Assembly: GCA_965247335.1 (NCBI GenBank)
Contig: CBDFGU010000009.1
Location: 851,243 to 915,242 of the forward strand
Direction of reading: 5' to 3'
Length of the DNA: 64,000 nucleotides
Source: Rickettsiales bacterium
Lineage (GTDB): Bacteria > Pseudomonadota > Alphaproteobacteria > Rickettsiales > UBA3002
The notes below the pieces were generated by a model. It did no database searches, was not told where the DNA came from, and was given only the letters and a program-made list of their open reading frames with translations. The position numbers and the translations under genes are program-made. Position 1 is the first letter of the stretch. Each line of letters starts with the position of its first letter. This document shows positions 11,586-28,631 of this stretch, in pieces.

Positions 11586-14500
11586 CTATATCTCCTCAGC
11601 ACCCTCATATAGCATCGGCGGGATATTATCCTCCGGCCGGTCATCCGGCCAAGATTCCGATAGCGGCAGGTAGAAGCTGCGCGTTGCCTGCTGCTGCTCG
11701 TCAGCGAATACATAGGTCAGCGCGTAATGACGCGTATCACTAAACAGCATTGGCGGATTTTGCGAGACCTGCGTTACAGTCGGCGGCACTGTTGCATCAG
11801 CCACCGGGGATAACACTGGCGGTGCGGGCGGCGGCGGTGCGGCCGGGTCGAAGATCGTCGCGGTCGCCGTCGCACTGCTGTTGAAACTATAGTTCCCGCT
11901 ATCGGTTCCCATTGCCGTAATACCGCTTACGCTGACCGGCTTACCCGTGCCGATCGCCGCATCCGCAAAGCTCGCGCTACCATAGGCAAGGTTCAGCGAA
12001 TCACCGGTCACACGATTATCGCCGAGCGTCACGCTGACATTCGTGGTACCATCATATGCCCGGTCCGCCGCTGAGGCACTGACTGTCAGCGCCCGCGGGG
12101 TGATGGCGGCAGCCGTGCCAGCCGTGGTATTGAACGTGTAATTACCGGCATCCGTGCCTGCAAGCGTGATCCCGCTGACGCTAATCGCCTTGGCAGCGCC
12201 AACATTCTTGTCCATAAAGTTCGCCGTGTAGCCGATGCCGAGCACATCACCCGTCACCCGATTATCACTCAGCGTCACGTCTGCTGTCGTCAGCCCATTA
12301 TACACTTTATCGATGCCGGTCGCGCCGATGGTCAAGGCTTTCGGCGTGATGTTCGCCGTGTCCGTTGCACTGGTATTGAACGTATAGTTGCCACTATCTG
12401 TTCCCGTCACCGTGATGCCGGTCACGTTCACCGTCTTGCCGGTACCGGCATTCTTGTTCGTGAAGTTCGCTGCGGTGTCGGCGATCGCCAGCACATCGCC
12501 AGCGATGCGATCATCACCAAGCGTCGCACTCGCCGTTGTCAGCGCATCATAGATCTTGTCGGCCGCCGTCGCCGTTATCGTTAACGTCCTTTTCGTGATG
12601 TTCGCCGTATCCGTTGCCGTGGTGTTGAACGTATAGTTGCCGCTATCAGTTCCCATCACCGTTATTCCGTTGACTGTAACGACCTTGCTCGACCCGGCAT
12701 TCTTGTTGGCGAAGCTCGCACTGGTATCGTTGATGGTCAACACATCCCCCGCCACGCGATTATCGCCCAGCGTTACGCTGGCGGTGGCAAGACCATCATA
12801 CACTTTATCAAGTGCTGTCGCGCTAACCGTCAGCGCCCGCGGCGTGATATTCGCCGTATCCGTTGCTGTCGTGTTGAACGTGTAGTTGCCGCTATCGGTT
12901 CCCAGCACCGTGATACTATTGACCGTCACTAGCTTGCCATTCGCCACATCCTTATCCGTGAAGGTTGCGCTACCATGGCCAAGTGTCAACACGTCGCCCG
13001 CGACACGGTTATCACCGAGCACGACACTGGCCGTCGTCACACCATCATACACTTTATCAAGTGCTGTCGCGCTCACCGTCAGCGCCCGCGGGGTGATGTT
13101 CGCCGTATCCGTCGCGCTAGTGTTGAAGGTGTAGTTGCCACTATCTATACCCGTCACCGTGATGCCGGTTACATTCACCGTCTTGCCAGCACCGACATTC
13201 TTGTTGGTAAAGTTCGCCGCTGCATCGCTGATCGTCAACACATCGCCAGCAACGCGATTATCGCCCAGCGTCACGCCTGCTGTTGTCAGACCGTTATACA
13301 CTTTATCGACTGCCGTCGCCGTCACGCTCAGCGCGGCTTTAGTGATATTCGCCGTATCCGTTGCCGTCGTATTGAACGTGTAGTTACCACTATCCGCTCC
13401 CGTTACCGTAATCCCACTGATTGTGACGACCTTGTTCGATCCGGCATTCTTGTTGGCGAAGCTCTCGCTCGCATCACTGACGATCAAAGCATCTCCCGCC
13501 ACCCGATTATCGCCCAGCGTTACGCTGACGGTCGTCAACCCGTCGTAAATCTTGTCGGCAGCATTCGCTGTCACGGTCAGTGCTTTCGGCGTGATGTTTG
13601 CCGTATCCGTCGCGCTGGTGTTAAAGGTGTAGTTGCCGCTATCGGTTCCTGTCACCGTGATACCATTGACCGTCACCAGCTTGCCATTCGCCACATCCTT
13701 ATCCGTGAAGGTTGCGCTACCATAGCCAAGTGTCAGCACATCACCCGCGATGCGGTCATCGCTCAATGTTACGCTTGCGGTCGTTAGCCCATCATACACT
13801 TTATCAGCTGCGGTCGTCGTCACGGTCAGTGCTTTCGGCGTGATGTTCGCCGTATCCGTCGCGCTGGTGTTGAAGGTATAGTTGCCACTATCTATACCCG
13901 TCACCGTGATGCCCGTCACATTCACCGTCTTGCCGGTACCGGCATTTTTGTTGGTGAAGTTTGCTGCGGCGTCAGCGATTGTCAGCATGTCGCCGGCAAC
14001 GCGATCATCGCCCAGCGTCACACCCGCCGTCGTCAGACCGTTATATACCTTATCCGCCGCATTCGCCGTTACGGTCAGCGCTGCTTTGGTGATGTTCGCC
14101 GTAGTTCCTGCCGTGGTGTTGAAGCTGTAGTTGCCACTATCCGCCCCGGTGACCGTGATGCCGCTAACGCTCACTGCACGGCCTGTGCCTACATTCTTGT
14201 CGGGGAAACTGGCCGAACCATAGCCAAGCGTCAGCACATCCCCCGCCACCTGATTATCACTCAGCGTGACCGTAGCGGCCGCGAGGCCATCATATACTTT
14301 GCTGATGCCCGTGGCAGCGATCGTCAGCGCGCGCGGGGTGATATTCGCCGTATCCGTCGCCGTCGTGTTGAACGCGTAGTTGCCGCTATCGGTTCCCATC
14401 ACCGTAATGCCGTTGACCGTGACCAGCTTGCCATTCGCCACATTCTTATCCGCGAAGGTTGCGCTACCATGGCCAAGTGTCAATACGTCGCCCGCGACAC

Positions 14501-17500
14501 GGTCATCGCCCAGAACGACACTGGCCGTCGTCACACCATCATACACTTTATCAAGTGCTGTCGCGCTCACCGTCAGCGCCCGCGGAGTGATATTCGCCGT
14601 ATCCGTCGCGCTGGTGTTGAAGGTGTAGTTGCCACTATCTATACCCGTCACCGTGATGCCCGTCACATTCACCGTTTTATTGTTGTTCACATTCTTGTTG
14701 GTAAAGTTCGCCGTTGTATCGTTGATCGTCAGCACATCGCCGGTGACGCGGTTGTCGCCCAGCGTTACACCTGCCGTTGTCAGCGCATCATAAATCTTGT
14801 CGGCTGCCGTCGCCGTTACCGTCAGCGCTTTTTGCGTAATGTTCGCCGTGGTGCTCGCCGTACTATTGAACGTGTAGTTGCCGCTATCGGTACCCGTCAC
14901 CGTGATCCCGCTGACACTGACCGCCCGGCCCGTGCCCACGTTCTTGTCCGGGAAGCTGGCCGCACCATACCCCAGCGTCAGCACATCACCGGCGACGCGG
15001 TTATCACCGAGTGTTACGGTGGCTGCCGCAAGGCCGTCATACACTTTGCTGATACCGCTCGCCGTCACGGTAAGCGCTTTCGCGGTAATGTTTGCCGTCG
15101 TACTCGCCGTGGTATTGAAAATGTAGTTACCGCTATCCGTCCCCGTCACCGTAATGCCGCTGACACTGACCGCTCGGCCCGTGCCCACATTCTTGTCCGG
15201 GAAGCTGGCGGTGCCATATCCGAGCGTCAGCACATCACCCGCCACGCGATTATCGCCAAGCGTCACCGTCGCGGCCGCGAGGCCGTCATACACTTTACTG
15301 ATGCCCGAAGCCGTTACCGTCAACGCGGCTTTGGTGATGTTCGCCGTAGTGCTCGCCGTAGTACTGAACGTATAGTTGCCACTATCCGTCCCCGTCACCG
15401 TAATGCCGCTGACACTGACCGCACGACCCATACCTGCGTTTTTGTCGGGGAAGCTGGCCGCACCATATCCCAGCGTCAGCACATCACCCGCCACACGATT
15501 GTCGCCGAGTGTCACCGTCGCTGTCGCGAGGCCATCATACATTTTACTGATCCCGCTTGCACTTACCGTCAATACTTTTGCCGTGACATTCGCGGTCGTG
15601 CTCGCGGTGGTGTTGAACGTATAGTTGCCACTATCGGTACCCGTCACCGTAATGCCACTGACATTGACCGTGCGACCCGTACCCACATTCTTGTCCGGGA
15701 AACTAGCGCTGCCGTAACCGAGCGTCAGCACGTCACCGGCGATGCGGTTATCGCCGAGCGTCACCGTCGCGGCTGCGAGGCCGTCATACACTTTGCTGAT
15801 ACCCGAAGCCGTTACCGTCAATGCGGCTTGGGTAATATTTGCCGTCGTGCTCGCGGTACTATTGAACGTGTAGTTGCCACTGTCCGTTCCCGTCACCGTA
15901 ATGCTGCTGACGTTGACTGCGCGACCTGTGCCCACATTCTTGTCAGGGAAGCTGGCCGCGCCATAGCCGATCGTCAGCACATCACCGGTAATGCGATTAT
16001 CGCCCAATGTCACCGTTGCGGCTGCCAGGCCGTTATAGACTTTATCAATGCCCGAAGCCGTTACCGTCAACGCGGCTTGGGTAATATTTGCCGTCGTGCT
16101 CGCGGTACTACTGAACGTGTAGTTGCCACTGTCCGTTCCCGTCACTGTAATGCCGCTGACGCTGACCGCACGGCCGGTGCCCACATTCTTGTCGGGGAAG
16201 CCGGCGGCGCCGTAACCCACCGTCAGCACGTCACCTGCTACGCGATTATCACCGAGTGTTACGGTGGCTGCCGCAAGGCCGTTGTACACTTTATTAATAC
16301 CCGAAGCCGTTACCGTCAGGGCTTTCGCCGTGATGTTGGCCGTCGTGCTCGCCGTGGTGTTGAACGTATAGTTACCGCTATCCGTCCCCGTCACCGTAAT
16401 GCCGCTGACACTGACCGCTCGGCCCGTGCCCACGTTCTTGTCCGGGAAGCTGGCCGCACCATACACCAGCGTCAGCACATCACCGGCGACGCGATTATCA
16501 CCGAGTGTTACGGTGGCTGCCGCAAGGCCGTTGTACACTTTATCAATACCCGAAGCCGTTACCGTCAACGCTTTCGCCGTGATGTTGGCCGTCGTGCTCG
16601 CCGTGGTGTTGAACGTATAGTTGCCACTATCCGTCCCTGTTACCGTGATCCCGCTGACATTGACCGTGCGACCCATACCCACATTCTTGTCCGGGAAATT
16701 AGCGCTGCCGTAACCGAGCGTCAGCACGTCACCGGCGATGCGGTTATCGCCGAGCGTCACCGTCGCGGCTGCGAGGCCATCGTATACTTTGCTTATGCCG
16801 GTAGCACTTACCGTCAATACTTTCGCCGTGATATTTGCCGTCGTGCTCGCGGTGGTGTTGAACGTATAGTTGCCACTATCCGTCCCTGTTACTATGATCG
16901 CGCTGACATTGACCGTGCGACCCGTACCCACATTCTTGTCGGGGAAGCTGGCTGCACCGTAACCCAGCGTCAGCACATCACCCGCCACGCGATTATCGCC
17001 GAGTGTCACCACTGCCGCTGCCAAACCATCATAAACTTTGTTGACGCCGGTTGCACTGACCGTCAACGCTTTCGCCGTGATATTTGCCGTCGTGCTCGCG
17101 GTGGTGTTGAATGTATAGTTGCCACTATCGGTACCCGTCACCGTAATGCCACTGACGCTGACCGCCCGGCCCGCACCCACATTCTTGTCCGGAAAGCTGG
17201 CTGCTCCATAACCAAGCGTCAGCACATCGCCACTGATACGGTCATCCCCCAGCGTCACCGCTGCGGCCGCAAGGCCATTATACACTTTATCGATGCCGGT
17301 CGCCGTCACCGTCAGCGCTTTTTGCGTAATGTTCGCGGTCGTGCTCGCCGTACTATTGAACGTGTAGTTGCCACTATCGGTACCCGTCACCGTGATCCCG
17401 CTGACACTGACAGCCCGACCCGTACCTGTATTCTTGTTGGGGAAGCTGGCCGCACCATACCCCAGCGTCAGCACATCACCGGTGACGCGGTTATCGCCCA

Positions 17501-20500
17501 GCGTCACCGTCGCGGCTGCGAGGCCATCATACACTTTATTGATGCCGGTTGCGCTTACCGTCAGCGCTTTTTGCGTAATGTTCGCCGCTGTGCTCGCCGT
17601 ACTATTGAACGTATAGTTGCCGCTATCGGTACCCGTCACCGTGATCCCGCTGACACTGACCGCCCGGCCCGTGCCCACGTTCTTGTCCGGGAAGCTGGCC
17701 GCACCATACCCCAGCGTCAGCACATCACCGGCGACGCGGTTATCACCGAGTGTTACGGTGGCTGCCGCAAGGCCATCATACACTTTACTGATACCGCTCG
17801 CCGTCACGGTAAGCGCTTTCGCGGTAATGTTCGCCGTCGTACTCGCCGTGGTATTAAAAATGTAGTTACCGCTATCCGTCCCCGTCACCGTAATGCCGCT
17901 GACACTGACCGCTCGGCCCGTGCCCACGTTCTTATCGGGGAAGCTGGCGATGCTATACCCCAGCGTCAGCACATCACCCGCCACGCGATTATCGCCAAGC
18001 GTCACCGTCGCGGCTACGAGGCCATCATACACTTTACTGATGCCTGAAGCCGTTACCGTCAACGCGGCTTTGGTGATGGTGAGGCCGGTCGACGCGCCCG
18101 TATAGCTTACCGCATAATCGCTGGCCAGGCCGCTCGTGAAGTTCGCGCCGCTGACACCGATGGTCCACGGCGTGCCCACTGCGCTGATGTTGTACTGCCC
18201 GCTGGTCGCTGTCGTCGCATTGGTGCTGAGCACGACGCTGCCGATCACATCCGTGCCGTAGAGCGAGCTGGTGGTAACATTGAACCCTGTGGTGCCGAGG
18301 CTGCCGAAGCCATAGATACGCGATTGATCCGCCGCGCTGACCGTAATGGCCCGCGTGCCGACGACCCCAGAATTATTCGACACATACGTAAAGCCGTAGC
18401 CGGTCGACGACAGGAGCGTGCTGCCATTATTGCTGATGACATAGCCCGTGCCCGCATGCTGGCCCTGGACATAGCTCGTCTGGAAGATGCCGGTACCCGT
18501 GATGCTGTCGCTGCCGCTATCGAGCGGGTTGAGGTAGCCTGAAGTCTGCAAAACATACCCGGTCGGCACGATCACCGCATCGCCATAATTATAGGTCTGG
18601 CCCGAGATGGTGATGGTGAGCAGCGGCGTGGTGCTGTAGAGCATGCCGTTGCCGGTACCTAGCGCCGGGCAGCTGCCACCATAGGTGCAGCTGTAGCGGT
18701 TGAAGTTGTTGACGAGGCTTGTCGCGCCCGTATTGGCTGCTGGGTTGGTGCTGTAAATCAGCCAGCGGCCGCCCGCACCCGTGGTCAGGACACCCGCACC
18801 CTTCGTGTTGACGAAATTACGGCCCGCGACCAGCGTGATGGCGTTGGCGCTGGCGTCATTGGTTACGAGGTTCTGGTTCAGCACCACATCGCGTAACGCC
18901 TGGATGAAGATCGGCCCGCCCGAATCGCTGAGCGCCACCGCGTTAATGAAGTCGTTGCCGCTCTGGAACTTTACCGGATCCGTATACGTCGCGTAGTTAT
19001 TCGTCACATCGCCCGAGATCAGGTTGCCGAACGTGATGGACGACCAGCCATCGACGATACGGCCGTTCTCGGCCGTGGTCAGGTTGAGCCCCGCCGTGGT
19101 ATCCGCATCCGTCGTCGCCGTCCCGATATTCACGGCGCGGCCGGCTGTTTGCGGGGCGATGATCAGGGCACCCGTCCCGGCGAGGGTTGAACTCAACGTC
19201 AGGTTATCCGCGTTGATGGTGAGGATGCCGAGCGGCACGCTGCCGCCAACGGCTGCACTGAATGTCACCGTCCCGGTACCGGCTACGATGATGAGATTCT
19301 CCGGCGAGCCACCCGCGGTACCGTCCAGCGTGCTGTTGAAAGTAACGTTGTCGTTCGTCGTCGTGATATGGATGGTCTTGCCTTCGGCGATCACCGTCGC
19401 GTTCGGGAAGGTAACCGCGTTGGTCGCGGTGATGTCGTTCTCGAGGATGTTGGCCGCGTTGCCGAAATTCACCGTGCCCGACGAAATGATCGGGGTCTTG
19501 ACGTCGAGCGTGGCAAAACCCTGCCAGTCGATATTGCCGAACGTTGCCCCGGCATACAGGAGTGTCGTCGCATCGGGGCTGTAGCTTGAGCGCGTCGGGT
19601 TCAGGCCCGAACGCAGCGTGAAGTTGCCCGTGCCGGATTTCAGGATACCGTTGATATACAGGTCACCCGTGCCGTTGATGTTGGCATTCGCGGCTTCGAG
19701 GGTGAGGGCACCCGTTGCGCCCGTCGCCAGTGTCCTGCCGGAGTTGATGGTCAGGTCGCGCTGGCTGATGATGCTGACATTGCCGCTGCTGACCAGGTCG
19801 TTATCGAGCGTGAAATCCTGGAAGCCCTGGATATCGACCACGCCGACCGTGGCCCCCTGCTGGGTGAGATTGGTCGTGACGTAGTTCGGGCGCGTGCCAT
19901 TGATACCCGAATGCAAGGTCAGCGCCCCGCTGCCCATCGCGATATTGCCGTTAAGATTCAGGTTGCCCGTCCCGGCGATGACGTTGTTTGCTGCTTCGAG
20001 GGTAAGCGCCCCGGTCGCCCCCGGCGTGATGGTCATACCCACATTTTCCGTCAGGTCGCGCTGGGCGATAATCGAGATATTGCCGCTGCTGGCAAGGTTG
20101 CGGTTAAGCGTGAGATCCTGATAGCCGGTGATGCTGATCGCCCCGAAGGTCGTCAGTGGTACAAGGTTCGCGGTGGTGAACGTCACCGAAGGGCGCGTCC
20201 CGTTCACCCCGGAAATCAACGTCAATGCTCCAGTGCCTCCGGAGATGGTGCCGAGGATGTTGAGGTTGCCCGGGTTGCCGATCGAGCCTGCCGCTGCTTC
20301 GAGAGCCAGCTGGCCAGCGGCGCCGGTAGTGACTGTAACCCCGGAATTGACATTAAGATCGGCCACTGAAATCGCGACGATATCCCCGTTGCTCGTGATA
20401 TTCTTGGCGAAGGTCAGCGTCTGGATACCACGGATATTGAGCGCGCCGATCACCCCAGCCCCTTGCGGATTGAAGGTCGTATTGTCGAGCGTGTAGCTTG

Positions 20501-23500
20501 GGCGCGTGCCGTTGGAACCCGAGATCAGCGTCACCGCACCCGTACCCGGCGCAAGCACGCCGCTAAGCGTCAGGTTGCCGGTATTCGTGTAGGTTCCATT
20601 TCCCGACTCAAGCGTCAGCGCCGAGGCCGAGCCGGGCGTTACCGTCATCCCGCTGTTGAGGGTAAGATCGTGCACGGCGATGATCGTGATATTGCCGTTG
20701 CTGCTGAGGTTGCGGTTGACCGTCACATCCTGCAACCCTTCGATATCGAGTGCGCCAAAGGTACTTTGCGGGATGAAGTTGCTGGTGGTGATCGTCCAGC
20801 TCGGCCGCGTTCCGTTCAGGCCGGAATACAGCGTCGTCGCGCCGTTACCGACATTGAGAACACCGCTCAAAGTCAGATTCCCCGTGCTGCCGGTCGAGCC
20901 GCTTGCTGCCTTGAGCGTGAGGCTGCCCGTCGCGCCGGTGGTCACGGTCATGCCGCTATTCACGGTGAGGTCGCGAGTTGCCACGATGTTGATGTTGCTA
21001 CTGCTCGCCAGGTTGCGGTTGATGACGAAATCCTGGTAGCCACTGGCAGTGATGGCCCCAAACGTACTTTGAGGTGTGAAGTTCGTGGTGCCGATCGTAT
21101 AATTCGCGCGGGTGCTGCCATTGACGCCCGAGACCAGCGTCAGCGCCCCGCTGCCGGCATTGATGACGCCGTTCAGGTTCGAGATGCCGGCACTACCGGT
21201 GCTGCCGCCGCCGCTGTCGAGCGTTAAGGTGCTGGCGGCGCCATTGCGGATGGTGTTGGCCGCATTCAGCGTCAGGTCACCGTAACTGATAACGTTGATG
21301 TTGCCGCTGCTGATGAGATCGGTATTGAATGTCAGGGCGTTGATGCCGGTAATGCTGACCGCCCCGAGCGTTCCTTGCGGTGTGAAATTGGTCGCATCCG
21401 CCGTCCAGTTCGGGCGAGTACCATTCACCCCCGACAGTAATGTCAGCGCCCCGGTGCCCGGCGAGATCGTCCCGTTGAGCACGAGGTTACCCGTCCCGGT
21501 GACGACATTGTTTGCCGCTTCCAGTGCGAACGAACCCGCTGGGCCGGAGGCGATCGTCTTGCCGGTAGAGAGCGTCAGGTCCTTGAAGGATTTGATCAGG
21601 ATGTTACCGGCGCTGCTCAGGATATTACCGCTCGCAATGATATTGCCCGTGGTCGTGGTCGCAGTAAAATTGCCCGTCAGCGCCACATCCGGCAGGGTCA
21701 GCGCATTGGTCGAGGTCAGTGCCACCGTGGTCAGCGGCGTCACCGCGCCCATCGCCGCGTTGATAACGAATGTACCCGCGGTGCCGGTAAGCGAGATACC
21801 GTTGATCGCGCCGTTATAGGTCGTCGTCGCCGTACCGGAATTGGTGGTCAGGCTTTCCGCGCCGCCGCCCGCCGTGCCGTCGACCGTCCCGAGCGTGATC
21901 GCCGCATTCGCCGTTGAGAAGGTCGGTGCGAACGTATCCTGGATCACCAGCGGGTTGCTGATCGTGATCGTCCCCGTACCCGCCGTTGTCAAGGCACTGC
22001 CATTGATCGAGGTACCAGTATTATTGGCGATAAGGATATTCCCCGCTGTCAGCACGAGCGGGCGGGCGATGGTGAGGATATTGAAGCCCTCCATATCGAC
22101 CGTGCCGCCGAACGAACCGGCATGGCTGAGCGTCGTCGCACTTGCCGTGAAGCTTGGCCGCGCGCCGTTGATACCGGAGATGAGCGTTACCGCTCCCGTG
22201 CCCACGGCGACGTTCCCGTTCAGGGTCAGGTTGCCGGTGCCGGCCACCGCACCACCGGCGGCTTTCAGGGTCAGCGCGCCGGTGCCCGCCGCTGTGATGG
22301 TCTTGCCCGCCGCTTCCGTCAGGTCACGTGCCGCCGTTAGCACCGCCGCCCCGGTCGAGGTGATATTGCCATTCACCGCGATATCGCGCGCCGCGGTGAA
22401 CGTGCCCGCACTCGTCGTGATAGTGCCGTTGGTAGTCAAATCACGCGCACTTGTCATCGTCACCGCACCGGTCGCGGTGATGCTGCCCGCCGTGATGTCA
22501 CCCGTCGCACCTGTGGTCGTCGCTGCGAGGCTTGCTGCGGTGATCGTTGGCAGCATCAACGCCTGCACACTATTCAGCGTCACCGCTGCCATCGTTGTTG
22601 TCTGGCCGAGCGTCCCGCCGAAGGTGATCGTATCCGCCGTCGCATTGAGGATGAAATTGTTGAGGTTGCCGGTGAAGGTCGTCGTCGCCGTGCCGCTACT
22701 GGTAGTCAGCGAACTTGCCGCCGAGCCGCCCGTGATGGTGCTACCAAACGTGATCGCCTGGTTCGCAGTCGTCACGGTCGGCGTCGCCCCGGCCACGATA
22801 GTGACCGGGTTTGTGATGTTGATGGTGCCCGTGCCGAGCGTCGACAGGCTCGAACCTGAGCCGAGCGCGAGGCTGGTATTATTCGCGAACGAAAGATTTT
22901 GGTTCGCACTCAGCCCGAAGGCGCGGCTGACGGTCAGCACGTTGAAGCCCTCGATATCAACCGGCCCGTTGAAATTGCCCGCATGCACGAGGCTGGTCGC
23001 CGTCGCCGTCCAGCTCGGGCGCGCGCCGTTGATACCGCTATAGAGCGTCAGCGCGCCGGTACCGATGCCCACATTGCCGACGATATTCAGGTTACCCGTA
23101 CCGGCCGTCGCCCCGTTAGCCGCTTTCAGCGTCAGGTTCCCCGAACCATTCGCCGTTACCGTTTTGCCCGTCGCGATGTTCAGGTCGCGAAACGCGGTAA
23201 TGATCACATCCCCCGTCGAGGTAATGTTGCCCGTCGTAATGTCACCCGTCGCCCCGGTGCTTGTCACGGTGACGCTCGCCGCCGTGATATCCGGCAAGGT
23301 CACCGCCGCCACATCGTTGATGGTCACGGCACCCATCGTCGTCGTCGCGCCAAGTGTACCGCCGAACGTAAAGTTGTTCGCCGTTGCCGTAAGAATGAAG
23401 TTATTGAGCACGCCGAAGGTCGTCGCCGCCGTACCGGAGTTGGTGGTAAGCGAACTCGCCGCCGAGCCGCCCGTAATAGCGCCGAGCACGATCGGCTGGT

Positions 23501-26500
23501 TCGCCGTGGTGATGGAAACGACCGCACCCGCCGTAATGCTCAGCGGATTACTGATGGTGATCGTCCCCGTTCCAGTCGTGCTCAGATTCTGGCTCAGCAC
23601 CGTGGAGGTATTGTTCGCGATGGTCAGGGTATTGTTGGTGCCAAGGTTGAATGCTCGCGACAGCGTCAACGTCGCGAAGCCCTCGATATCGACATTGCCG
23701 AAATTCGCCCCCTGCGCGATGAGGTTGCTGGTCGTCGGTGTCCAGCTCGGCCGCGTCGTGCCACTATACAAAGTAAGGGTGCCGGTGCCGACGGAAAGAT
23801 TGCCGTTCAGCGTCAGCGCTCCCACCCCGGTCGCCGGCACGCCATTCGCTGCCTTAAGGCTGAGGCTGCCCGTCGCCCCCGTCGTGATGGTCTTCGCCGC
23901 TGCCAGCGTCAGGTTGCGGAACGCTGTCATCGTGACGTTCCCGCCCGCCGCAACATTGCCGTTCACCGCAATATCCGCCGCCGTCCCCGCCGTCGTGATT
24001 GTCGTGTTGCCTGTCGTCGTAATGTCGCCACCGGCCGTCACGCTGCCACTCGCCCCGCTCGTGCTGACATTCAGGCTCGCCGCCGTGATGGCCGGCAAGG
24101 TCAGCGCATTGGTTGCCGTCAGCGCTACCGCACCCATCGCCGTCGTCGCCCCGAGCGTACTACCGAAGCTGATCGTCGCCGCCGTCACGGTTGGATCAAA
24201 GCCGTTCAGCGCCCCGGTGAAGGTTACCGTGCCCGTGCCTGCATTCACGTTCATCGTCTCGGCCACGCCACCCGGAGTGCCCGCGACCGCGCCACCGAAC
24301 GTCACGTTACCGCCACCCGTAGTAATAGTAGTGGCCGACGCTTCCGCCAGCGTGATCGGACCGTTGATGGTGATGGTACCTGCACCGAGCGTTGATAAAG
24401 TCTGGCCACCATTCAGCACTGTTGCCGTATTATTTGTCAAAGTCAGATTGTTGCCCGTGGTCAGCATGAGCGGACGATTGATCGTCAATGTATTGAACCC
24501 TTCGATATCGACCGCCCCACCGAACGAGCCCGTATGGGCCAGTGTCGTCGCATCCGCCGTCCAGCTTGGCCGGGTGCCGTTGATGCCGCTGTAGAGTGTG
24601 GCCGCCCCGCTGCCGCCGTGACTTAAATTCCCGTTGAGATTCAGGTTGCCCGTGCCGCTCGTCACCCCATTCGCCGCTTTCAGGCTCAGCGCCCCCGTGC
24701 CCGCCGTGGTGATGGTCTTGCCCGCCGCCAGCGTCAGGTCGCGGAAAGCGGTGATGGTCACCGCACCGGCCGAAGTGAGGTTACCATTCACCGCGATATC
24801 CGCCGTCGCGCCGCTCGTCGTTGCCGTGAAACTCGCCGCTGTGATGTCCGGCAAGGTCAATGCGTTGACTGCAGCCAGCGTCACCGCGCCCATCGTGGTC
24901 GATTGGCCGAGCGAACCGCCCAAGCTCACCGTTCCCGCCGTTGCCGTCAGGCCAAAATTATTCAGGTTGCCGGTGAACGTTGTCGTCGCCGTGCCGGAGT
25001 TGGTGGTGAGCGAACTCCCCGCCGAACCACCCGTCACCGTATTGCTGAAGGTGATCGGCTGGTTCGCCGTCGTCACGGTCACGCTCGACCCCGCCGCGAT
25101 GGTCGTCGGGTTGGTGATGCTGATGCTGCCTGTGCCGCTCGTCGTCAGATTGCCGCCCAGCACCAGCGAGGTATTGTTGGCGAACGAAAGGCTATTATTC
25201 ACCGCCATCGTGATTGCCCGGCCGATCGTCAGGGTAGTGAATCCTTCGATATCGATCGGCCCGAACGACCCGGCATTGACCAACGTCGTCGCGTTCGCCG
25301 TCCAGCTCGGCCGCGTGCCGTTGATGCCGCTGATCAGGGTGAGCGCCCCGGTGCCGACATTCAGATTACCGTTCAGGTTCAAGTTACCCGTCCCGCTTGT
25401 CACCCCGTTCGCAGCCTCGAGCGTCAAGGCGTTGGTGCTCCCGGCCGTGATGGTTTTCGCCGCCGCCAACGTCAGGTCACGCATGGCGATGATACTGACC
25501 GCACCTGTGCTCGTAATGTTTCCGTTGGCCGTAATATCCGCCGTCGCGTTCGTCGTCGCGGCGTTGAAACTCGTTGCCGTGATGTCCGGCAGGGTCAGCG
25601 CGCTTGCCGCCGTCAACGCCACCGCGCCCATGGTCGTCGTGCTGCCGAGCGTGCCGCCAAGGGTCAGCGTGCCCGCTGTTGCGGTCAGGCCAAAATTGTT
25701 AAGTACGCCGAAGCTCGTCGTCGCCGTGCCCGAATTGGTGGTCAGCGTGCTCGCCGCCGAGCCGCCGGTGATCGCGCCGAGGGTAATGTTCTGGTTCGCC
25801 GAGGTCACGCTCGGCGTCGCACCCGCGAGGATCGTCACCGGGTTGCTGACCGTGATCGTTCCCGTGCCGAGCGTACTCAGATTCGCCCCGAGCACCGTCG
25901 AGGTGTTGTTGGCGATTGTCAGATTCCCGGCCGCGAGGTCGAGCGCCCGGCTCAGCGTCAGCACATTGAAACCTTCGAGGTCGACCGCGTTATTAAACGA
26001 ACCAGCATGCACCAGACTGGTCGCGCTCGCCGTCCAGCTCGGCCGCGTCCCATTCACCCCACTATACAAGGTGAGTGCCCCGCTGCCGATAGTGAGGCTG
26101 CCGTTCAAAGTCAGGTTACCCGTCCCGCCCGTCGAACCGTTCGCGGCTTTAAGGCTGAGGTTGCCTGCACCACCCGCCGTGATGGTCTTGCCCGCGGCCA
26201 GCGTCAGGTCGCGGAAGGCCGTCACCACCACCGCTCCCGCCGAGTTCAGGTTACCGTTTACGCTGATATCCCCCGCTGCGCCGCTGGTGCCCAGAGTAAT
26301 AGTTGTTGCCGTGATGTCCGGCAGGCTCAGCGCATTCACCGCCGTCAGCACCACCGCCCCCATGGTCGTCGTCGCGCCGAGGGTCGAGCCAACGGTGATG
26401 GTCGCCGCCGAAATAGTCGGGTCGAAGCCGTTGAGCGCTCCGGTGAAGCTTGTCGTCCCGGCGCCGCTGTTCACCGCCAGCGTCTCGACGACACCGCCTG

Positions 26501-28631
26501 GCGTCCCCGTGACCGTGCCGCCAAAGGTCACGCTGCCGCCCCCGGTGGTGACCGCCACCGCCGACGCTTCCGGCAGCACGACCGGGCCAGTCATGGTCAC
26601 CGTGCCGGCACCTAACACGGAAAGATTGTTATTGAGATTTATCAGGGTGTTGTTTGCAAGTTTCAGGTTATTGCCCGTGGTCAGCGCCAGCGCACGGTTC
26701 ACCGTCAGCACATTGAAGCCTTCGATATCGACCGCACCCCCGAATGACCCGGCATGCGCCAGCGTCGTCGCGTCCATCGTCCAGCTCGGACGGGTGCCGT
26801 TAATACCCGAGATCAGGGTCAGGGGCCCGGTGCCCAGCGTCAGGTTACCCGTCAGGTTAAGGTTGCCGGTGCCGCTCGTCACCCCGTTCGCCGCTTTCAC
26901 GCTGATGCCGCTTCCGGAGAGACCTGCCGCGACGTTAACGTCCTGATTCGCGAGCAGGTTGATGTTGCCGGCGGTGCTGATCGCGCTATTCACCGTAATG
27001 CTGCCAGCCGCCGCTACATTGGCGTTCAGGTTAATGTCGCCGCTGCCGGCATTGGTGATGGTATTATTCACGATGATGTTGTTCGAAGCATTCACCGTCA
27101 GACTACGCACGCTGTTCCACGATACCGCATCGACGAAGGTGATATTGCCAAGGCCGCCCGTCCCCGCCGCGCTGCTGATGATCACGTTCGCTGCGCCGTT
27201 CAGTGCGCTCACTAGTGTCGCCACGCTCAGATTGCTGGTCGCCCCGCCGGTTGAGCCAAACGGACTCGCCGCAGTGATGACGCTATCGGCCGCGTTGCTG
27301 ATGGTGATATCCGCCGGGTCGAGCAGCCAGATCCCAGTGGTGCCGTGCGCCGCGCTCGCATTCACGCTTCCGGCCAATTGGAGGAAGTCATGGCCCGAGG
27401 TTTCGATGAAGCCGCCATTGCCGCTGGCGCCATACGCTCCAACATCGGCAAACCCGTTGAAGACCGTTCCCTGATCAGACCAGACAACGACCCTGCCGCC
27501 ATTTCCCGCGCCGGTTGCAGCGGCCAGTAGGTCGACGCCGTTAGCAACAAAGACGCGGGACGCGGTCGGCACCACCCCGTTCGGGAAGAGAGCGGTTAAT
27601 TGCGCCCCTTGATACAGGCCGCCATGAACATCTCCGCTAACCAGGATCTCCCCGCCCCCCGCCACGCCCGACGCATCGAGATGGGCGCCGTTCAGCAGCG
27701 CGACATTATCGCCAAGCACATGGATTGCCCCACCTTTTTCACCGGCATGCTTGCCGCTTGCATCCAGTTTCGCCGTAACGATGACCTGACGGCTACGGCC
27801 CGTACTTGCCGCTGAAGCGATGATGATCGCCCCCTGATGAGTACTCACCGTCTGCGCCGTCAGGGTGCCTTCCGCGGCAATGGAGCTGGTCAGGATGGAC
27901 TTGCCCGTGGCGGCGGTCAACGCCACGACCCCGCCATCCGCTGCGATAGTCCCTGTATTCTTAACCAGTTGTTTTGTCACGTTATCAGAGACAGCAACCT
28001 CAAGCAGCCCGTCCCCGTATAGATCGACCGTTGCCGTGTCGCCCGAGGCCAGCTGGGCCCGTCCCAGCCTTGCGGTGATGATTCCTTGATTTTCGACATC
28101 CGGCGCGACGAGGCCGACCAGGCCCGCCTCTTTCGCCGTCAGCTGGCCTTTATTGATGATCGCCGCGTCCGGGTTGCTGCTGGCCTTGTTTAGCTGTAGT
28201 TTTCCGCCGGCCATGAAGGTGCTATTATCCGTATCCGCGGTGCTGACGACGAGGCTATTCGCATCGACCTGGGCGCCGGCGCCGAACACCACGCCGTTCT
28301 GGTTGACAATGACGACATTGCCATTGGCCGTGAGCCTGCCGTTGATCTGCGACGCACTGGTGCTGTTGACGCGGTTGAGGGCAATGGAATTCGCGGTTGG
28401 CTGAACGAATTCAGTGGTTTCGCTCGGGGCGATATCGAAGCCGCGCCAGTCGATGACGGCACGGTCGCTGTGCTGGGCGATATGTACCGTAGTCGGATTG
28501 GTTGTGGTGATGGTCGCTGAACCGGCGGCAACAACGCCATCCAACGGGTTGGCAAACGCAGGCTCAACGCGCGTGAGCGCGATGAGCGCGCACGCGAGTA
28601 TTACTAGCCGTTTGAAAAATGTTTGCCTCAA
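11586..28631 (-). CDS. giant two-partner-secretion exoprotein (TpsA; filamentous-haemagglutinin-family adhesin with MBG/YDG repeats), 5,681 aa
   Basis: The ORF is uninterrupted over 17,046 nt. It has a signal peptide (LACALIALTRVEPAFA) and a TPS/haemagglutination-activity domain (NPLDGVVAAGSATI..., LNRV..., ANGNVVIVNQNGVVFG). It carries the conserved GGFIETSG...GIWLLDPADITI block, then 14 NGTRPSW-anchored modules, then 25 MBG/YDG units. The start is TTG at 28631, with GGCAGG upstream. Confidence 0.9.
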   Translation of the reverse strand: MRQTFFKRLVILACALIALTRVEPAFANPLDGVVAAGSATITTTNPTTVHIAQHSDRAVIDWRGFDIAPSETTEFVQPTANSIALNRVNSTSASQINGRLTANGNVVIVNQNGVVFGAGAQVDANSLVVSTADTDNSTFMAGGKLQLNKASSNPDAAIINKGQLTAKEAGLVGLVAPDVENQGIITARLGRAQLASGDTATVDLYGDGLLEVAVSDNVTKQLVKNTGTIAADGGVVALTAATGKSILTSSIAAEGTLTAQTVSTHQGAIIIASAASTGRSRQVIVTAKLDASGKHAGEKGGAIHVLGDNVALLNGAHLDASGVAGGGEILVSGDVHGGLYQGAQLTALFPNGVVPTASRVFVANGVDLLAAATGAGNGGRVVVWSDQGTVFNGFADVGAYGASGNGGFIETSGHDFLQLAGSVNASAAHGTTGIWLLDPADITISNAADSVITAASPFGSTGGATSNLSVATLVSALNGAANVIISSAAGTGGLGNITFVDAVSWNSVRSLTVNASNNIIVNNTITNAGSGDINLNANVAAAGSITVNSAISTAGNINLLANQDVNVAAGLSGSGISVKAANGVTSGTGNLNLTGNLTLGTGPLTLISGINGTRPSWTMDATTLAHAGSFGGAVDIEGFNVLTVNRALALTTGNNLKLANNTLINLNNNLSVLGAGTVTMTGPVVLPEASAVAVTTGGGSVTFGGTVTGTPGGVVETLAVNSGAGTTSFTGALNGFDPTISAATITVGSTLGATTTMGAVVLTAVNALSLPDITATTITLGTSGAAGDISVNGNLNSAGAVVVTAFRDLTLAAGKTITAGGAGNLSLKAANGSTGGTGNLTLNGSLTIGSGALTLYSGVNGTRPSWTASATSLVHAGSFNNAVDLEGFNVLTLSRALDLAAGNLTIANNTSTVLGANLSTLGTGTITVSNPVTILAGATPSVTSANQNITLGAITGGSAASTLTTNSGTATTSFGVLNNFGLTATAGTLTLGGTLGSTTTMGAVALTAASALTLPDITATSFNAATTNATADITANGNITSTGAVSIIAMRDLTLAAAKTITAGSTNALTLEAANGVTSGTGNLNLNGNLNVGTGALTLISGINGTRPSWTANATTLVNAGSFGPIDIEGFTTLTIGRAITMAVNNSLSFANNTSLVLGGNLTTSGTGSISITNPTTIAAGSSVTVTTANQPITFSNTVTGGSAGSSLTTNSGTATTTFTGNLNNFGLTATAGTVSLGGSLGQSTTMGAVTLAAVNALTLPDITAASFTATTSGATADIAVNGNLTSAGAVTITAFRDLTLAAGKTITTAGTGALSLKAANGVTSGTGNLNLNGNLSHGGSGAATLYSGINGTRPSWTADATTLAHTGSFGGAVDIEGFNTLTINRPLMLTTGNNLTLTNNTATVLNGGQTLSTLGAGTITINGPITLAEASATTITTGGGNVTFGGAVAGTPGGVAETMNVNAGTGTVTFTGALNGFDPTVTAATISFGSTLGATTAMGAVALTATNALTLPAITAASLNVSTSGASGSVTAGGDITTTGNTTITTAGTAADIAVNGNVAAGGNVTMTAFRNLTLAAAKTITTGATGSLSLKAANGVPATGVGALTLNGNLSVGTGTLTLYSGTTRPSWTPTTSNLIAQGANFGNVDIEGFATLTLSRAFNLGTNNTLTIANNTSTVLSQNLSTTGTGTITISNPLSITAGAVVSITTANQPIVLGAITGGSAASSLTTNSGTAATTFGVLNNFILTATANNFTFGGTLGATTTMGAVTINDVAAVTLPDITAASVTVTSTGATGDITTGNITSTGDVIITAFRDLNIATGKTVTANGSGNLTLKAANGATAGTGNLNIVGNVGIGTGALTLYSGINGARPSWTATATSLVHAGNFNGPVDIEGFNVLTVSRAFGLSANQNLSFANNTSLALGSGSSLSTLGTGTINITNPVTIVAGATPTVTTANQAITFGSTITGGSAASSLTTSSGTATTTFTGNLNNFILNATADTITFGGTLGQTTTMAAVTLNSVQALMLPTITAASLAATTTGATGDITAGSITATGAVTMTSARDLTTNGTITTSAGTFTAARDIAVNGNITSTGAAVLTAARDLTEAAGKTITAAGTGALTLKAAGGAVAGTGNLTLNGNVAVGTGAVTLISGINGARPSFTASATTLSHAGSFGGTVDMEGFNILTIARPLVLTAGNILIANNTGTSINGSALTTAGTGTITISNPLVIQDTFAPTFSTANAAITLGTVDGTAGGGAESLTTNSGTATTTYNGAINGISLTGTAGTFVINAAMGAVTPLTTVALTSTNALTLPDVALTGNFTATTTTGNIIASGNILSSAGNILIKSFKDLTLSTGKTIASGPAGSFALEAANNVVTGTGNLVLNGTISPGTGALTLLSGVNGTRPNWTADATNFTPQGTLGAVSITGINALTFNTDLISSGNINVISYGDLTLNAANTIRNGAASTLTLDSGGGSTGSAGISNLNGVINAGSGALTLVSGVNGSTRANYTIGTTNFTPQSTFGAITASGYQDFVINRNLASSSNINIVATRDLTVNSGMTVTTGATGSLTLKAASGSTGSTGNLTLSGVLNVGNGATTLYSGLNGTRPSWTITTSNFIPQSTFGALDIEGLQDVTVNRNLSSNGNITIIAVHDLTLNSGMTVTPGSASALTLESGNGTYTNTGNLTLSGVLAPGTGAVTLISGSNGTRPSYTLDNTTFNPQGAGVIGALNIRGIQTLTFAKNITSNGDIVAISVADLNVNSGVTVTTGAAGQLALEAAAGSIGNPGNLNILGTISGGTGALTLISGVNGTRPSVTFTTANLVPLTTFGAISITGYQDLTLNRNLASSGNISIIAQRDLTENVGMTITPGATGALTLEAANNVIAGTGNLNLNGNIAMGSGALTLHSGINGTRPNYVTTNLTQQGATVGVVDIQGFQDFTLDNDLVSSGNVSIISQRDLTINSGRTLATGATGALTLEAANANINGTGDLYINGILKSGTGNFTLRSGLNPTRSSYSPDATTLLYAGATFGNIDWQGFATLDVKTPIISSGTVNFGNAANILENDITATNAVTFPNATVIAEGKTIHITTTNDNVTFNSTLDGTAGGSPENLIIVAGTGTVTFSAAVGGSVPLGILTINADNLTLSSTLAGTGALIIAPQTAGRAVNIGTATTDADTTAGLNLTTAENGRIVDGWSSITFGNLISGDVTNNYATYTDPVKFQSGNDFINAVALSDSGGPIFIQALRDVVLNQNLVTNDASANAITLVAGRNFVNTKGAGVLTTGAGGRWLIYSTNPAANTGATSLVNNFNRYSCTYGGSCPALGTGNGMLYSTTPLLTITISGQTYNYGDAVIVPTGYVLQTSGYLNPLDSGSDSITGTGIFQTSYVQGQHAGTGYVISNNGSTLLSSTGYGFTYVSNNSGVVGTRAITVSAADQSRIYGFGSLGTTGFNVTTSSLYGTDVIGSVVLSTNATTATSGQYNISAVGTPWTIGVSGANFTSGLASDYAVSYTGASTGLTITKAALTVTASGISKVYDGLVAATVTLGDNRVAGDVLTLGYSIASFPDKNVGTGRAVSVSGITVTGTDSGNYIFNTTASTTANITAKALTVTASGISKVYDGLAAATVTLGDNRVAGDVLTLGYGAASFPDKNVGTGRAVSVSGITVTGTDSGNYTFNSTASTAANITQKALTVSATGINKVYDGLAAATVTLGDNRVTGDVLTLGYGAASFPNKNTGTGRAVSVSGITVTGTDSGNYTFNSTASTTANITQKALTVTATGIDKVYNGLAAAAVTLGDDRISGDVLTLGYGAASFPDKNVGAGRAVSVSGITVTGTDSGNYTFNTTASTTANITAKALTVSATGVNKVYDGLAAAVVTLGDNRVAGDVLTLGYGAASFPDKNVGTGRTVNVSAIIVTGTDSGNYTFNTTASTTANITAKVLTVSATGISKVYDGLAAATVTLGDNRIAGDVLTLGYGSANFPDKNVGMGRTVNVSGITVTGTDSGNYTFNTTASTTANITAKALTVTASGIDKVYNGLAAATVTLGDNRVAGDVLTLVYGAASFPDKNVGTGRAVSVSGITVTGTDSGNYTFNTTASTTANITAKALTVTASGINKVYNGLAAATVTLGDNRVAGDVLTVGYGAAGFPDKNVGTGRAVSVSGITVTGTDSGNYTFSSTASTTANITQAALTVTASGIDKVYNGLAAATVTLGDNRITGDVLTIGYGAASFPDKNVGTGRAVNVSSITVTGTDSGNYTFNSTASTTANITQAALTVTASGISKVYDGLAAATVTLGDNRIAGDVLTLGYGSASFPDKNVGTGRTVNVSGITVTGTDSGNYTFNTTASTTANVTAKVLTVSASGISKMYDGLATATVTLGDNRVAGDVLTLGYGAASFPDKNAGMGRAVSVSGITVTGTDSGNYTFSTTASTTANITKAALTVTASGISKVYDGLAAATVTLGDNRVAGDVLTLGYGTASFPDKNVGTGRAVSVSGITVTGTDSGNYIFNTTASTTANITAKALTVTASGISKVYDGLAAATVTLGDNRVAGDVLTLGYGAASFPDKNVGTGRAVSVSGITVTGTDSGNYTFNSTASTTANITQKALTVTATAADKIYDALTTAGVTLGDNRVTGDVLTINDTTANFTNKNVNNNKTVNVTGITVTGIDSGNYTFNTSATDTANITPRALTVSATALDKVYDGVTTASVVLGDDRVAGDVLTLGHGSATFADKNVANGKLVTVNGITVMGTDSGNYAFNTTATDTANITPRALTIAATGISKVYDGLAAATVTLSDNQVAGDVLTLGYGSASFPDKNVGTGRAVSVSGITVTGADSGNYSFNTTAGTTANITKAALTVTANAADKVYNGLTTAGVTLGDDRVAGDMLTIADAAANFTNKNAGTGKTVNVTGITVTGIDSGNYTFNTSATDTANITPKALTVTTTAADKVYDGLTTASVTLSDDRIAGDVLTLGYGSATFTDKDVANGKLVTVNGITVTGTDSGNYTFNTSATDTANITPKALTVTANAADKIYDGLTTVSVTLGDNRVAGDALIVSDASESFANKNAGSNKVVTISGITVTGADSGNYTFNTTATDTANITKAALSVTATAVDKVYNGLTTAGVTLGDNRVAGDVLTISDAAANFTNKNVGAGKTVNVTGITVTGIDSGNYTFNTSATDTANITPRALTVSATALDKVYDGVTTASVVLGDNRVAGDVLTLGHGSATFTDKDVANGKLVTVNSITVLGTDSGNYTFNTTATDTANITPRALTVSATALDKVYDGLATASVTLGDNRVAGDVLTINDTSASFANKNAGSSKVVTVNGITVMGTDSGNYTFNTTATDTANITKRTLTITATAADKIYDALTTASATLGDDRIAGDVLAIADTAANFTNKNAGTGKTVNVTGITVTGTDSGNYTFNTSATDTANITPKALTIGATGIDKVYNGLTTADVTLSDNRVTGDVLGIGYTANFMDKNVGAAKAISVSGITLAGTDAGNYTFNTTAGTAAAITPRALTVSASAADRAYDGTTNVSVTLGDNRVTGDSLNLAYGSASFADAAIGTGKPVSVSGITAMGTDSGNYSFNSSATATATIFDPAAPPPPAPPVLSPVADATVPPTVTQVSQNPPMLFSDTRHYALTYVFADEQQQATRSFYLPLSESWPDDRPEDNIPPMLYEGAEEI
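11847..18071 (-). repeat. tandem array of 25 x 249-bp (83-aa) MBG/YDG-type repeats inside tpsA
   Basis: The unit consensus is ALTVTASGISKVYDGLAAATVTLGDNRVAGDVLTLGYGAASFPDKNVGTGRAVSVSGITVTGTDSGNYTFNTTASTTANIT. The array length of 6,225 nt equals 25 x 249. The periodicity is visible as 82-aa antisense ORFs spaced exactly 249 nt apart (12637, 12886, 13135...). Confidence 0.9.
19500..26990 (-). repeat. 14 diverged beta-helix-like modules anchored on G-x-NGTRPSWT (approximate bounds)
   Basis: The motif recurs at about 26781, 26034, 25302, 24561, 23742, 23010, 22150 and 21405, a period of 732-860 nt. It then recurs at about 21100, 20795, 20493, 20190, 19882 and 19590, a period of about 300 nt. Confidence 0.7.

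What the first reader, a model, noticed from the sequence alone, without database searches (positions are those of the whole stretch)
11847..18071. 25 tandem 249-bp MBG/YDG repeats with two unit classes and higher-order duplications
The array is exactly 25 x 249 nt. Units 1-13 and unit 16 are one near-identical class (GYGAASFPDKNVGTGRAVSVSGITVTGTDSGNYTFN). Units 14-23 alternate among diverged classes (..ANFTNKN..GKTVNVTGITVTGIDSGNY.. and ..GHGSATF.DK.VANGKLVTVNGITV.GTDSGNY..). Higher-order copies are visible. The antisense ORFs at 14878..15126 and 17617..17865 translate identically, an offset of 2,739 nt or 11 units. Those at 12886 and 14380 are near-identical, an offset of 1,494 nt or 6 units. 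This pattern points to recent block duplication or gene conversion, and it predicts length variation by recombination between units. It is also a classic place for short-read assemblies to collapse or expand.
Basis: seen in the sequence. Interest (0 to 1): 0.65.

Follow-up and report, generated by a model that had tools for sequence, protein, structure and literature searches.

The report
YDG-domain repeat stalk of giant adhesin
The 25 tandem 249-bp repeats are real and encode the repeat-domain "stalk" at the tail end of a 5,681-residue secreted adhesin of an uncultured alphaproteobacterium; this is an ordinary example of a known protein class, and most of its copies are old rather than freshly duplicated.

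Summary
Window 11850-18071 holds 25 in-frame tandem units (24 of 249 nt, one of 246 nt) on the minus strand. Each unit is a Pfam YDG domain (PF18657). They form the C-terminal third of a 5,681-aa two-partner-secretion exoprotein (TpsA, 11586-28631), whose TpsB transporter gene lies directly upstream.

The "recent duplication" reading holds only in part. Units 1-13 and 16 are 82-99% alike as protein but only 76-88% alike as DNA. Median dS is about 0.6-1.0 and dN/dS about 0.09, so most copies are old and under purifying selection.

Young events are few:
- A 524-nt, two-unit tract (units 1-2 and 12-13) is 96% identical.
- A 234-nt tract (units 15 and 21) is 95% identical.
- Short mosaic patches are statistically significant.

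Units 14-23 form a three-unit (747-nt) higher-order repeat. Units cluster by species, and copy number differs widely between species.

Short-read unitigs from a public run match the array exactly at single-copy depth and span key junctions. This argues against collapse or expansion, but no long read verifies the count of 25.

YDG arrays of up to 43-55 copies exist elsewhere, and the domain was defined in the "Periscope Protein" study. Verdict: a real but ordinary new member of a known kind.

The parts
11586..28631 (-). tpsA: a single 5,681-codon ORF with a TTG start, encoding a giant two-partner-secretion exoprotein / fibrillar adhesin
   Evidence: ORF list and translation. The reading frame stays open through the whole array. 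The N-terminus MRQTFFKRLVILACALIALTRVEPAFA looks like a signal peptide; this is read from the sequence and was not run through a predictor.
27804..28508 (-). TPS secretion domain (aa 42-276), the part recognised by TpsB
   Evidence: Pfam PF05860, E = 2.4e-32, 113 bits against a cut-off of 33.5. NCBIfam TIGR01901, E = 8e-22.
28725..30404 (-). tpsB: Omp85-type transporter (ShlB/FhaC family with POTRA_2), directly upstream on the same strand
   Evidence: Pfam PF03865, E = 8.8e-23, and PF08479, E = 9.1e-17.
14835..18071 (-). YDG units 1-13 (class A). They are 82-99% identical as protein and 76-88% as DNA, apart from the recent tract.
   Evidence: Median dS 0.97, dN 0.087, dN/dS 0.09. Third codon positions vary at 78 of 83 codons, against 31 for first and 21 for second positions.
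12345..14834 (-). YDG units 14-23: a three-unit (747-nt) higher-order repeat of classes B-C-D. The third slot of the first triplet is occupied by a class A unit (unit 16).
   Evidence: Identity is 78-81% at offsets of 3, 6 and 9 units, against 68-70% at other offsets (permutation p = 0.0002). Clades B (99/97), C (91/76) and D (96/97) appear in the unit tree.
11850..12344 (-). YDG units 24 (82 aa) and 25, the most diverged terminal units
   Evidence: HMM envelopes at aa 5430-5511 and 5512-5594. Long branches in the tree.
11589..11849 (-). 87-aa C-terminal tail: a proline-rich linker followed by an acidic end, with no known family
   Evidence: No Pfam match at E <= 1. Tails of relatives share only a P-x-T-V-like motif after a Pro-rich stretch. 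There is no VENN motif.
17548..18071 (-). Recent tract, copy 1 (units 1-2 plus 26 nt of unit 3)
   Evidence: It shows 21 differences in 524 nt against 14809-15332. Identity falls to 66% and 33% beyond the two ends. dS is 0.06 for units 2/13 and 0.17 for units 1/12.
14809..15332 (-). Recent tract, copy 2 (units 12-13 plus 26 nt of unit 14)
   Evidence: Same evidence as copy 1. Unitigs shared by both copies have about twice the depth (63.9 and 80.9) of copy-specific unitigs (28-36) in run X2.
12951..13184 (-). Second younger tract (mainly unit 21, running into unit 20), 95% identical to 14445-14678 (mainly unit 15, running into unit 14)
   Evidence: For units 15/21, dS = 0.21 and dN = 0.033.

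Best explanation
The array encodes 25 consecutive YDG domains. Each is an all-beta module of about 83 residues. Together they make up the C-terminal third of a giant TpsA exoprotein that is exported across the outer membrane by the adjacent TpsB.

The most likely role (inferred) is a long modular stalk, or a multivalent surface-exposed segment, of a fibrillar adhesin. Its length would be set by the number of units.

The array grew by tandem duplication in this lineage in at least two modes. One was a run of single units (class A). The other was a three-unit block (B-C-D) copied about three times.

Most of these duplications are old. Synonymous sites have diverged by about 0.6-1 substitutions per site, while purifying selection (dN/dS about 0.09) has kept the proteins nearly identical.

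Occasional unequal exchange or gene conversion still occurs. It has left one two-unit tract that is 96% identical, a one-unit tract that is 95% identical, and many 100-170-nt mosaic patches. There remain 43 in-register exact matches of at least 30 nt as substrates for in-frame gain or loss of whole units. Length change is therefore possible, but it should be much rarer than in arrays whose DNA repeats are near-identical.
For: Shown by tool results:
- Gene, TPS domain and TpsB.
- 25 YDG matches, which are the only ones in the 2.66-Mb genome.
- A confident all-beta model of one unit, pLDDT 95.5.
- Identity matrices and dN/dS.
- Recent tracts and their sharp boundaries.
- Mosaic test: 16 of 91 and 6 of 36 pairs at p < 0.01.
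- Period-3 super-repeat.
- Tree with species-specific clades: all 10 units of the congener G016 form one clade at 100/97.
- Congeners and relatives carry 1, 8, 11 or 20 YDG units.
- In-register exact matches.
- Run X2 matches the array with no differences. Unit-specific unitigs sit at 24-36x against flanks at 34-43x, shared unitigs sit at about 2x that depth, and unitigs span junctions 11>12, 13>14, 2>3 and pre-array>1.

From the literature:
- YDG (PF18657) was built from repeats of candidate variable-length stalk proteins (PMC8201768).
- It is used as a 'stalk domain' marker for fibrillar adhesins (PMC9210967).
- The TPS-secreted CdrA varies in its number of MBG_2 repeats (PMC8201768).
Against: - The stalk function is inferred by analogy. 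The three-unit model failed (pLDDT 33), so a rod-like arrangement is not shown.
- No solved structure resembles the unit significantly (best Foldseek E = 0.42; no PDB relative by sequence).
- A dN/dS of 0.09 over nearly all residues is tighter than a passive spacer would need. It may mean that each unit binds something.
- No expression data were found.
- The total copy number rests on the submitted assembly plus k-mer depth, not on spanning reads.
Confidence: 0.82

Rival explanations
1. This is the first reader's view: a fast, currently active variable-length (Periscope-type / contingency) array. Its copy number would change frequently within populations through recombination between near-identical units.
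For: - A 524-nt tract is 96% identical, with a 161-nt exact match.
- There are 43 in-register exact matches of at least 30 nt.
- Mosaicism is significant.
- Units cluster by species, and copy number differs between species.
- The domain family was defined from such proteins.
Against: - Median DNA identity within class A is about 80%, dS is about 0.6-1, and even the youngest pair has dS of 0.06.
- Run X3, a strain 1-2% diverged, keeps unit-specific sequence and several unit junctions.
- No alternative unit-to-unit junction was seen in X2 or X3. The one apparent joint was an alignment artefact.
Confidence: 0.2
2. This is an assembly artefact: the true array has a different number of units, through collapse or spurious expansion of repeats.
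For: - Short-read contigs of the same sample shatter inside the array.
- MAGs of relatives end inside YDG arrays.
- No spanning read was available.
Against: - All 25 units differ from each other (maximum 98% identity). An assembler cannot invent diverged copies, so spurious expansion is implausible.
- The frame is intact for 17 kb.
- Unit-specific unitigs are at single-copy depth (24-36x against flanks at 34-43x). Unitigs shared by two units are at about 2x.
- Four critical junctions around the near-identical tracts are spanned by exact unitigs.
Confidence: 0.07
3. The YDG units are themselves ligand-binding modules, giving multivalent binding to a glycan or a cell surface, rather than an inert spacer. 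The array's job would be avidity, not reach.
For: - Purifying selection is strong on almost every residue of every unit (dN/dS 0.09).
- The Y-D/N-G and G-N-Y motifs are invariant across species.
- No distinct C-terminal effector domain follows the array. The tail is 87 aa with no family match.
Against: - No binding data exist for any YDG domain in the papers found.
- The conserved motifs may be structural.
- This reading is compatible with the best explanation rather than exclusive of it.
Confidence: 0.3

Closest known systems
Periscope Proteins (Whelan et al. 2021, PMC8201768), in particular the TPS-secreted CdrA of Pseudomonas aeruginosa with MBG_2 repeats
   Same: Both are single-chain surface or secreted proteins with a long tandem array of small folded beta domains. 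Both use two-partner secretion, as CdrA/CdrB does. The repeat family here (YDG, PF18657) was created in that very study. Repeat number differs between related genomes.
   Different: DNA identity between units here is mostly 76-88%, not 'highly identical'. Within-species length variation is not shown. The array is C-terminal, with no recognisable functional head. The host is an uncultured environmental alphaproteobacterium.
Filamentous haemagglutinin-type TpsA adhesins (FHA/FhaC, HMW1, ShlA/ShlB family; T5bSS)
   Same: An N-terminal TPS domain with NPNL/NPNGI-like motifs, an adjacent Omp85/POTRA TpsB, and very large size.
   Different: No Pfam haemagglutinin-repeat (beta-helix) families were detected. 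Instead, the middle of the protein holds its own repeats of about 100-290 aa, and the C-terminal third is a YDG array.
Other YDG-array proteins in public data
   Same: There are 16,334 representative proteins with YDG matches. Arrays of 25-55 units occur, some with obvious higher-order repeats (for example P0029 with 25 units and P0026 with 43).
   Different: Only 50-59% identical to this one. The nearest N-terminal relative is 57-62% identical.
CdiA contact-dependent inhibition toxins
   Same: A TPS-secreted giant protein.
   Different: There is no VENN or pretoxin motif, no C-terminal toxin domain, and no downstream immunity gene. The next gene is a convergent M48 peptidase.

Membership tests
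Two-partner secretion TpsA (T5bSS passenger) | N-terminal TPS secretion domain | tested here: met
   PF05860 at 113 bits (cut-off 33.5); TIGR01901 at 76.9 bits (cut-off 29.1).
Two-partner secretion TpsA (T5bSS passenger) | Cognate Omp85-type TpsB with POTRA domains in the same locus | tested here: met
   28725-30404 (-): PF03865 and PF08479, 93 nt upstream of tpsA on the same strand.
Two-partner secretion TpsA (T5bSS passenger) | Actual secretion and surface display | not testable with these tools
   This needs expression and fractionation. No RNA run holds the gene.
YDG domain family (Pfam PF18657) | Match to the family HMM above the gathering score | tested here: met
   25 stretches, 1165 bits in total, and each unit at 54-71 bits in the six-frame genome search.
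MBG domain families (PF17883 / PF18676) | Match to the family HMM | tested here: not met
   No MBG hit in either half of the protein at E <= 0.001, nor in the 343 aa before the array at E <= 1. The congener G016 does carry MBG_2-like units between its YDG blocks.
Periscope Proteins | Tandem array of individually folding domains in a single-chain surface protein | tested here: met
   The unit model has pLDDT 95.5 and is all-beta. There are 25 contiguous units. Surface location is inferred from the TPS context.
Periscope Proteins | Highly identical repeats at the DNA level | tested here: not met
   Class A nucleotide identity is 76-88%. Only pairs 1/12, 2/13 and 15/21 reach 93-98%.
Periscope Proteins | Repeat-number variation between strains of one species | not testable with these tools
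   There is no conspecific full-length homologue; the best non-self hit is 57% identical. Runs X2 and X3 are held only as short contigs. Between species, the count ranges from 1 to 25.
Periscope Proteins | Rod-like, extended arrangement of the array | tested here: inconclusive
   The three-unit AlphaFold model failed (pLDDT 33).
CdiA (contact-dependent inhibition) | Pretoxin VENN motif, C-terminal toxin and downstream immunity gene | tested here: not met
   No VENN string, no toxin family in the tail, and the downstream neighbour is a convergent M48 peptidase.

The most novel reading that the evidence does not exclude
The array may be a 'recombination-proofed' stalk. Selection would keep the 14 class A units almost identical as protein, while favouring, or at least tolerating to near-saturation, synonymous scrambling. 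That scrambling removes long DNA identities and so stabilises an unusually long array against deletion. This would be the opposite strategy to Periscope Proteins. The same pattern, with amino-acid identity above nucleotide identity, is seen in the congener G016.
Probability: 0.12. Interest if true: 0.5.

Novelty: new member of a known kind. Interest (0 to 1): 0.25.

Why it matters
The main value is in annotation and method.

- The finding shows that a repeat array can look freshly duplicated at the protein level yet be old at the DNA level. Predictions of length hypervariability and of assembly collapse should therefore be made from nucleotide identity, not peptide identity.
- It adds a complete, uninterrupted 25-unit YDG array, with its TPS partner, from an uncultured alphaproteobacterial lineage. 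In that lineage most MAGs break inside such genes.
- It provides a confident single-unit model for a domain family that has no solved structure.

Tried and rejected
- **Three-unit AlphaFold model.** It was built from window paralogues only and failed (pLDDT 33). It was replaced by a one-unit model with a more diverse alignment.
- **Structural relatives.** A PDB profile search and Foldseek against the PDB gave no significant relative. Only weak Ig-like, PKD, Rib or cohesin resemblance appeared (TM <= 0.44), so I do not assign a fold family.
- **Other Pfam rows.** The Ig_CD22, DUF7348 and Ppnp rows have zero individually significant stretches. They are summed noise from the repeats and were rejected.
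- **Plus-strand ORFs.** ORFs 14469-18047 (1,192 aa) and 12975-13787 are antisense shadows of the repeats. Codon-position variability (78 of 83 third positions in the minus-strand frame) shows that the minus frame is the selected one.
- **Apparent X2 joints.** The joint 14956>16173 has a side of only 22 nt and is not a multiple of 249. The joint 16571>17080 carries a 10-nt insert that actually belongs to the unit boundaries at 15825 and 16074. Both are alignment artefacts.
- **tRNA-linked island.** No second copy of the tRNA-Arg 3' end was found in the window.
- **Conspecific homologues.** A search for homologues to compare copy number found none above 62% identity.
- **Expression.** An RNA-run search found no transcript data.
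- **P0029.** This protein has 25 YDG stretches and could have been an independent copy of this gene, but it is only 59% identical.
Full report
**1. Observation**

Tandem Repeats Finder reports a 249-nt period across 12241-18065, with scores up to 3656. The region lies inside one 5,681-codon ORF on the minus strand, 11586-28631. Cutting 18071 down to 11847 into 25 pieces of 249 nt gives 25 in-frame peptide units.

Unit 24 is one codon short (82 aa). The true array is therefore aa 3521-5594, which is window 11850-18071.

Pfam assigns all 25 units to YDG (PF18657; 1165 bits, 25 stretches). No MBG family matches anywhere in the protein, including the 343 aa before the array. These 25 domains are the only YDG domains in the 2.66-Mb genome.

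- Segments 14878-15126 and 17617-17865 differ at 4 nt, all synonymous in the gene's frame.
- The pair at 12886 and 14380 differs at 17 nt and 5 aa.

**2. What the gene is**

The protein begins with a signal-peptide-like N-terminus (read from the sequence). It then has a TPS secretion domain at aa 42-276 (PF05860, 113 bits; TIGR01901).

Directly upstream on the same strand lies a ShlB/FhaC-type Omp85 transporter with a POTRA_2 domain, at 28725-30404. A tRNA-Arg(CCT) gene precedes that transporter. This is a two-partner secretion (type Vb) locus.

There is no CDI signature. The protein has no VENN motif and no toxin family in its 87-aa tail. The downstream gene is a convergent M48 peptidase.

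Relatives are all uncultured. MAGs of the same genus carry inconsistent submitter labels ('Rickettsiales bacterium', 'uncultured Azospirillum sp.'). The best N-terminal matches are 57-62% identical.

**3. Anatomy of the array**

Identity matrices and a maximum-likelihood tree define four unit classes:
- Class A: units 1-13 and 16.
- Class B: units 14, 17, 20 and 23.
- Class C: units 15, 18 and 21.
- Class D: units 19 and 22.

Units 24 and 25 are diverged terminal units.

In units 14-23, identity is 78-81% at offsets of 3, 6 and 9 units and 68-70% at other offsets (permutation p = 0.0002). This is a B-C-D higher-order repeat of 747 nt, with unit 16 (class A) sitting in a D slot. Within units 1-13, identity does not decay with distance.

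**4. Age of the copies**

Class A units are 82-99% identical as protein but only 76-88% identical as DNA.
- Nei-Gojobori estimates over the 91 class A pairs give median pS 0.54, dS 0.97, dN 0.087 and dN/dS 0.09.
- At 27 fourfold sites, the mean pairwise difference is 0.40, against 0.69 at saturation for this gene's GC3-rich composition. That corresponds to about 0.6 substitutions per site.
- Third codon positions vary at 78 of 83 codons, against 31 for first and 21 for second positions.

Most units are therefore old duplicates held by purifying selection, not recent copies.

The exceptions are:
- Units 2/13 (dS 0.06), units 1/12 (dS 0.17) and units 15/21 (dS 0.21).
- A 524-nt tract, 14809-15332 and 17548-18071, has 21 differences. 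Identity drops to 66% and 33% just outside it.
- A 234-nt tract, 12951-13184 and 14445-14678, is 95% identical.

A GENECONV-style permutation of polymorphic sites finds unexpectedly long shared runs. They occur in 16 of 91 class A pairs (0.9 expected) and in 6 of 36 other pairs. The units are thus mosaics produced by short-tract conversion or intra-unit unequal crossovers.

In-register exact matches of at least 30 nt number 43, and the longest is 161 nt. In-frame gain or loss of units remains mechanistically possible. From general knowledge of RecA-dependent recombination, which needs roughly 25-30 nt of identity and rises steeply with length, it should be far less frequent than in arrays of near-identical DNA repeats.

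**5. Comparison across genomes**

A congener (G016) has a 4,009-aa orthologue-like TpsA with 8 + 3 YDG units, separated by eight MBG_2-like units. Its six main units are 90-99% identical as protein and 86-93% as DNA, which is the same pattern as here.

All ten G016 units form one clade (100/97) separate from the window's units. The two consensus units are 67% identical. The arrays therefore expanded, or were homogenised, after the species split.

YDG counts elsewhere are:
- 0-13 in 23 congeners.
- 20 in a same-order genome, with a period of about 90 aa.
- 8 in locus L016, at least 11 in L017 and 1 in L015.

Many MAG hits lie at contig ends. This confirms that short-read assemblies break in such arrays.

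**6. Is the assembly right?**

No raw long reads were available, and the runs are held only as Logan contigs. Run X2 holds the locus with no differences.
- The flanks are in 2.6-kb and 11.8-kb contigs. The array is in unitigs of 45-550 nt.
- Unit-specific unitigs have depth 24-36, against 34-43 in the flanks.
- Unitigs common to the two near-identical tracts have depth 63.9 and 80.9.
- Exact unitigs span junctions 13>14, 11>12, 2>3 and pre-array>unit 1.

All 25 units are distinct in sequence, so spurious expansion is implausible. The single-copy depth argues against collapse. Two apparent joints were alignment artefacts.

Run X3 carries a strain 1-2% diverged. It keeps unit-specific sequence and several junctions. 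This is weak evidence for stability of the array within the species.

**7. Structure and function**

A one-unit AlphaFold model, built from an alignment of 38 YDG units from the window and related loci, is confident (pLDDT 95.5) and all-beta. A three-unit model failed.

Neither a PDB profile search nor Foldseek finds a significant solved relative. The best Foldseek hit has E = 0.42, with weak Ig-like, PKD or Rib resemblance.

In the literature:
- YDG (PF18657) was created during the Periscope Protein study, from long, highly identical repeats of surface proteins (PMC8201768).
- It is used as a stalk-domain marker for fibrillar adhesins (PMC9210967).
- In rhizosphere genomes, YDG/MBG domains are typical of T5bSS passengers (bioRxiv 10.1101/2024.05.07.592589).
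- CdrA, a TPS-secreted protein with MBG_2 repeats, varies in repeat number.

By analogy, the array most likely forms an extended stalk or multivalent surface segment. This step is inferred, not shown.

**8. Novelty**

A profile search of 1.84 billion representative proteins finds 16,334 proteins with YDG matches, including arrays of 43-55 units. Two of these were inspected and show their own near-identical units and higher-order repeats.

A 25-unit array is therefore not exceptional. The finding is a real, well-resolved but ordinary new member of a known class.

The one mildly interesting twist is the contrast between near-identical protein units and strongly diverged synonymous sites. That contrast makes this array a poor fit to the 'high DNA identity' criterion of Periscope Proteins. 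It also allows, with low probability, a reading in which DNA divergence is itself advantageous because it stabilises a long stalk.

Noticed in passing
window 19500-27000 (-), same gene: The middle of TpsA is built from its own large repeats: modules of about 245-290 aa and about 100 aa, anchored on L-x-SG-x-NGTRPSWT ... IEGF. No Pfam or NCBIfam family matches them. Tandem Repeats Finder cannot see them because the period exceeds 500 nt. An earlier first-stage note (e1-4993187) flags the same feature.
   Followed up: no
window 11589-11849 (-); tails of G016 (L011), L016 and G034 (L012): After the last YDG unit, all four proteins have a Pro-rich linker followed by a short conserved P-x-T-V-x-x-x-x-Q-like motif (VPPTVTQVSQ / LPNTVVKVSQ / LPNTVKKGVQ / LPTTVEQARV). 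The rest of each tail is otherwise unrelated and acidic or basic. The motif could be a processing or retention signal.
   Followed up: partly
window 14469-18047 (+) and 12975-13787 (+): Long open frames of 1,192 and 270 codons lie antisense to the array. They are repeat-induced shadow ORFs that a gene caller might wrongly annotate.
   Followed up: yes
G000:C9:2194034-2194819 (-) (L010): A second TpsA gene in the same genome has a 2,405-codon open frame and a TPS domain (100 bits). It has no YDG domains.
   Followed up: no
L011 (G016:C13) 1659-3365 (-) versus 4029-16058 (+): In the congener, a 568-aa ORF next to the TpsA gene is divergently oriented. If it is the TpsB gene, its arrangement differs from the co-directional tpsB-tpsA order in the window. 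Its identity as TpsB was not checked.
   Followed up: no
L017 (JAKFVN010000027.1) 9959-15703 and 17815-20468: The TpsA frame stops at 15703, but at least 11 YDG units continue in another frame up to the contig end. This suggests a frameshift or misassembly, or a split gene, in that MAG.
   Followed up: no
window 30506-30582 (-): A tRNA-Arg(CCT) gene sits immediately upstream of tpsB. No repeat of its 3' end occurs elsewhere in the window, so there is no evidence for a tRNA-linked island.
   Followed up: yes
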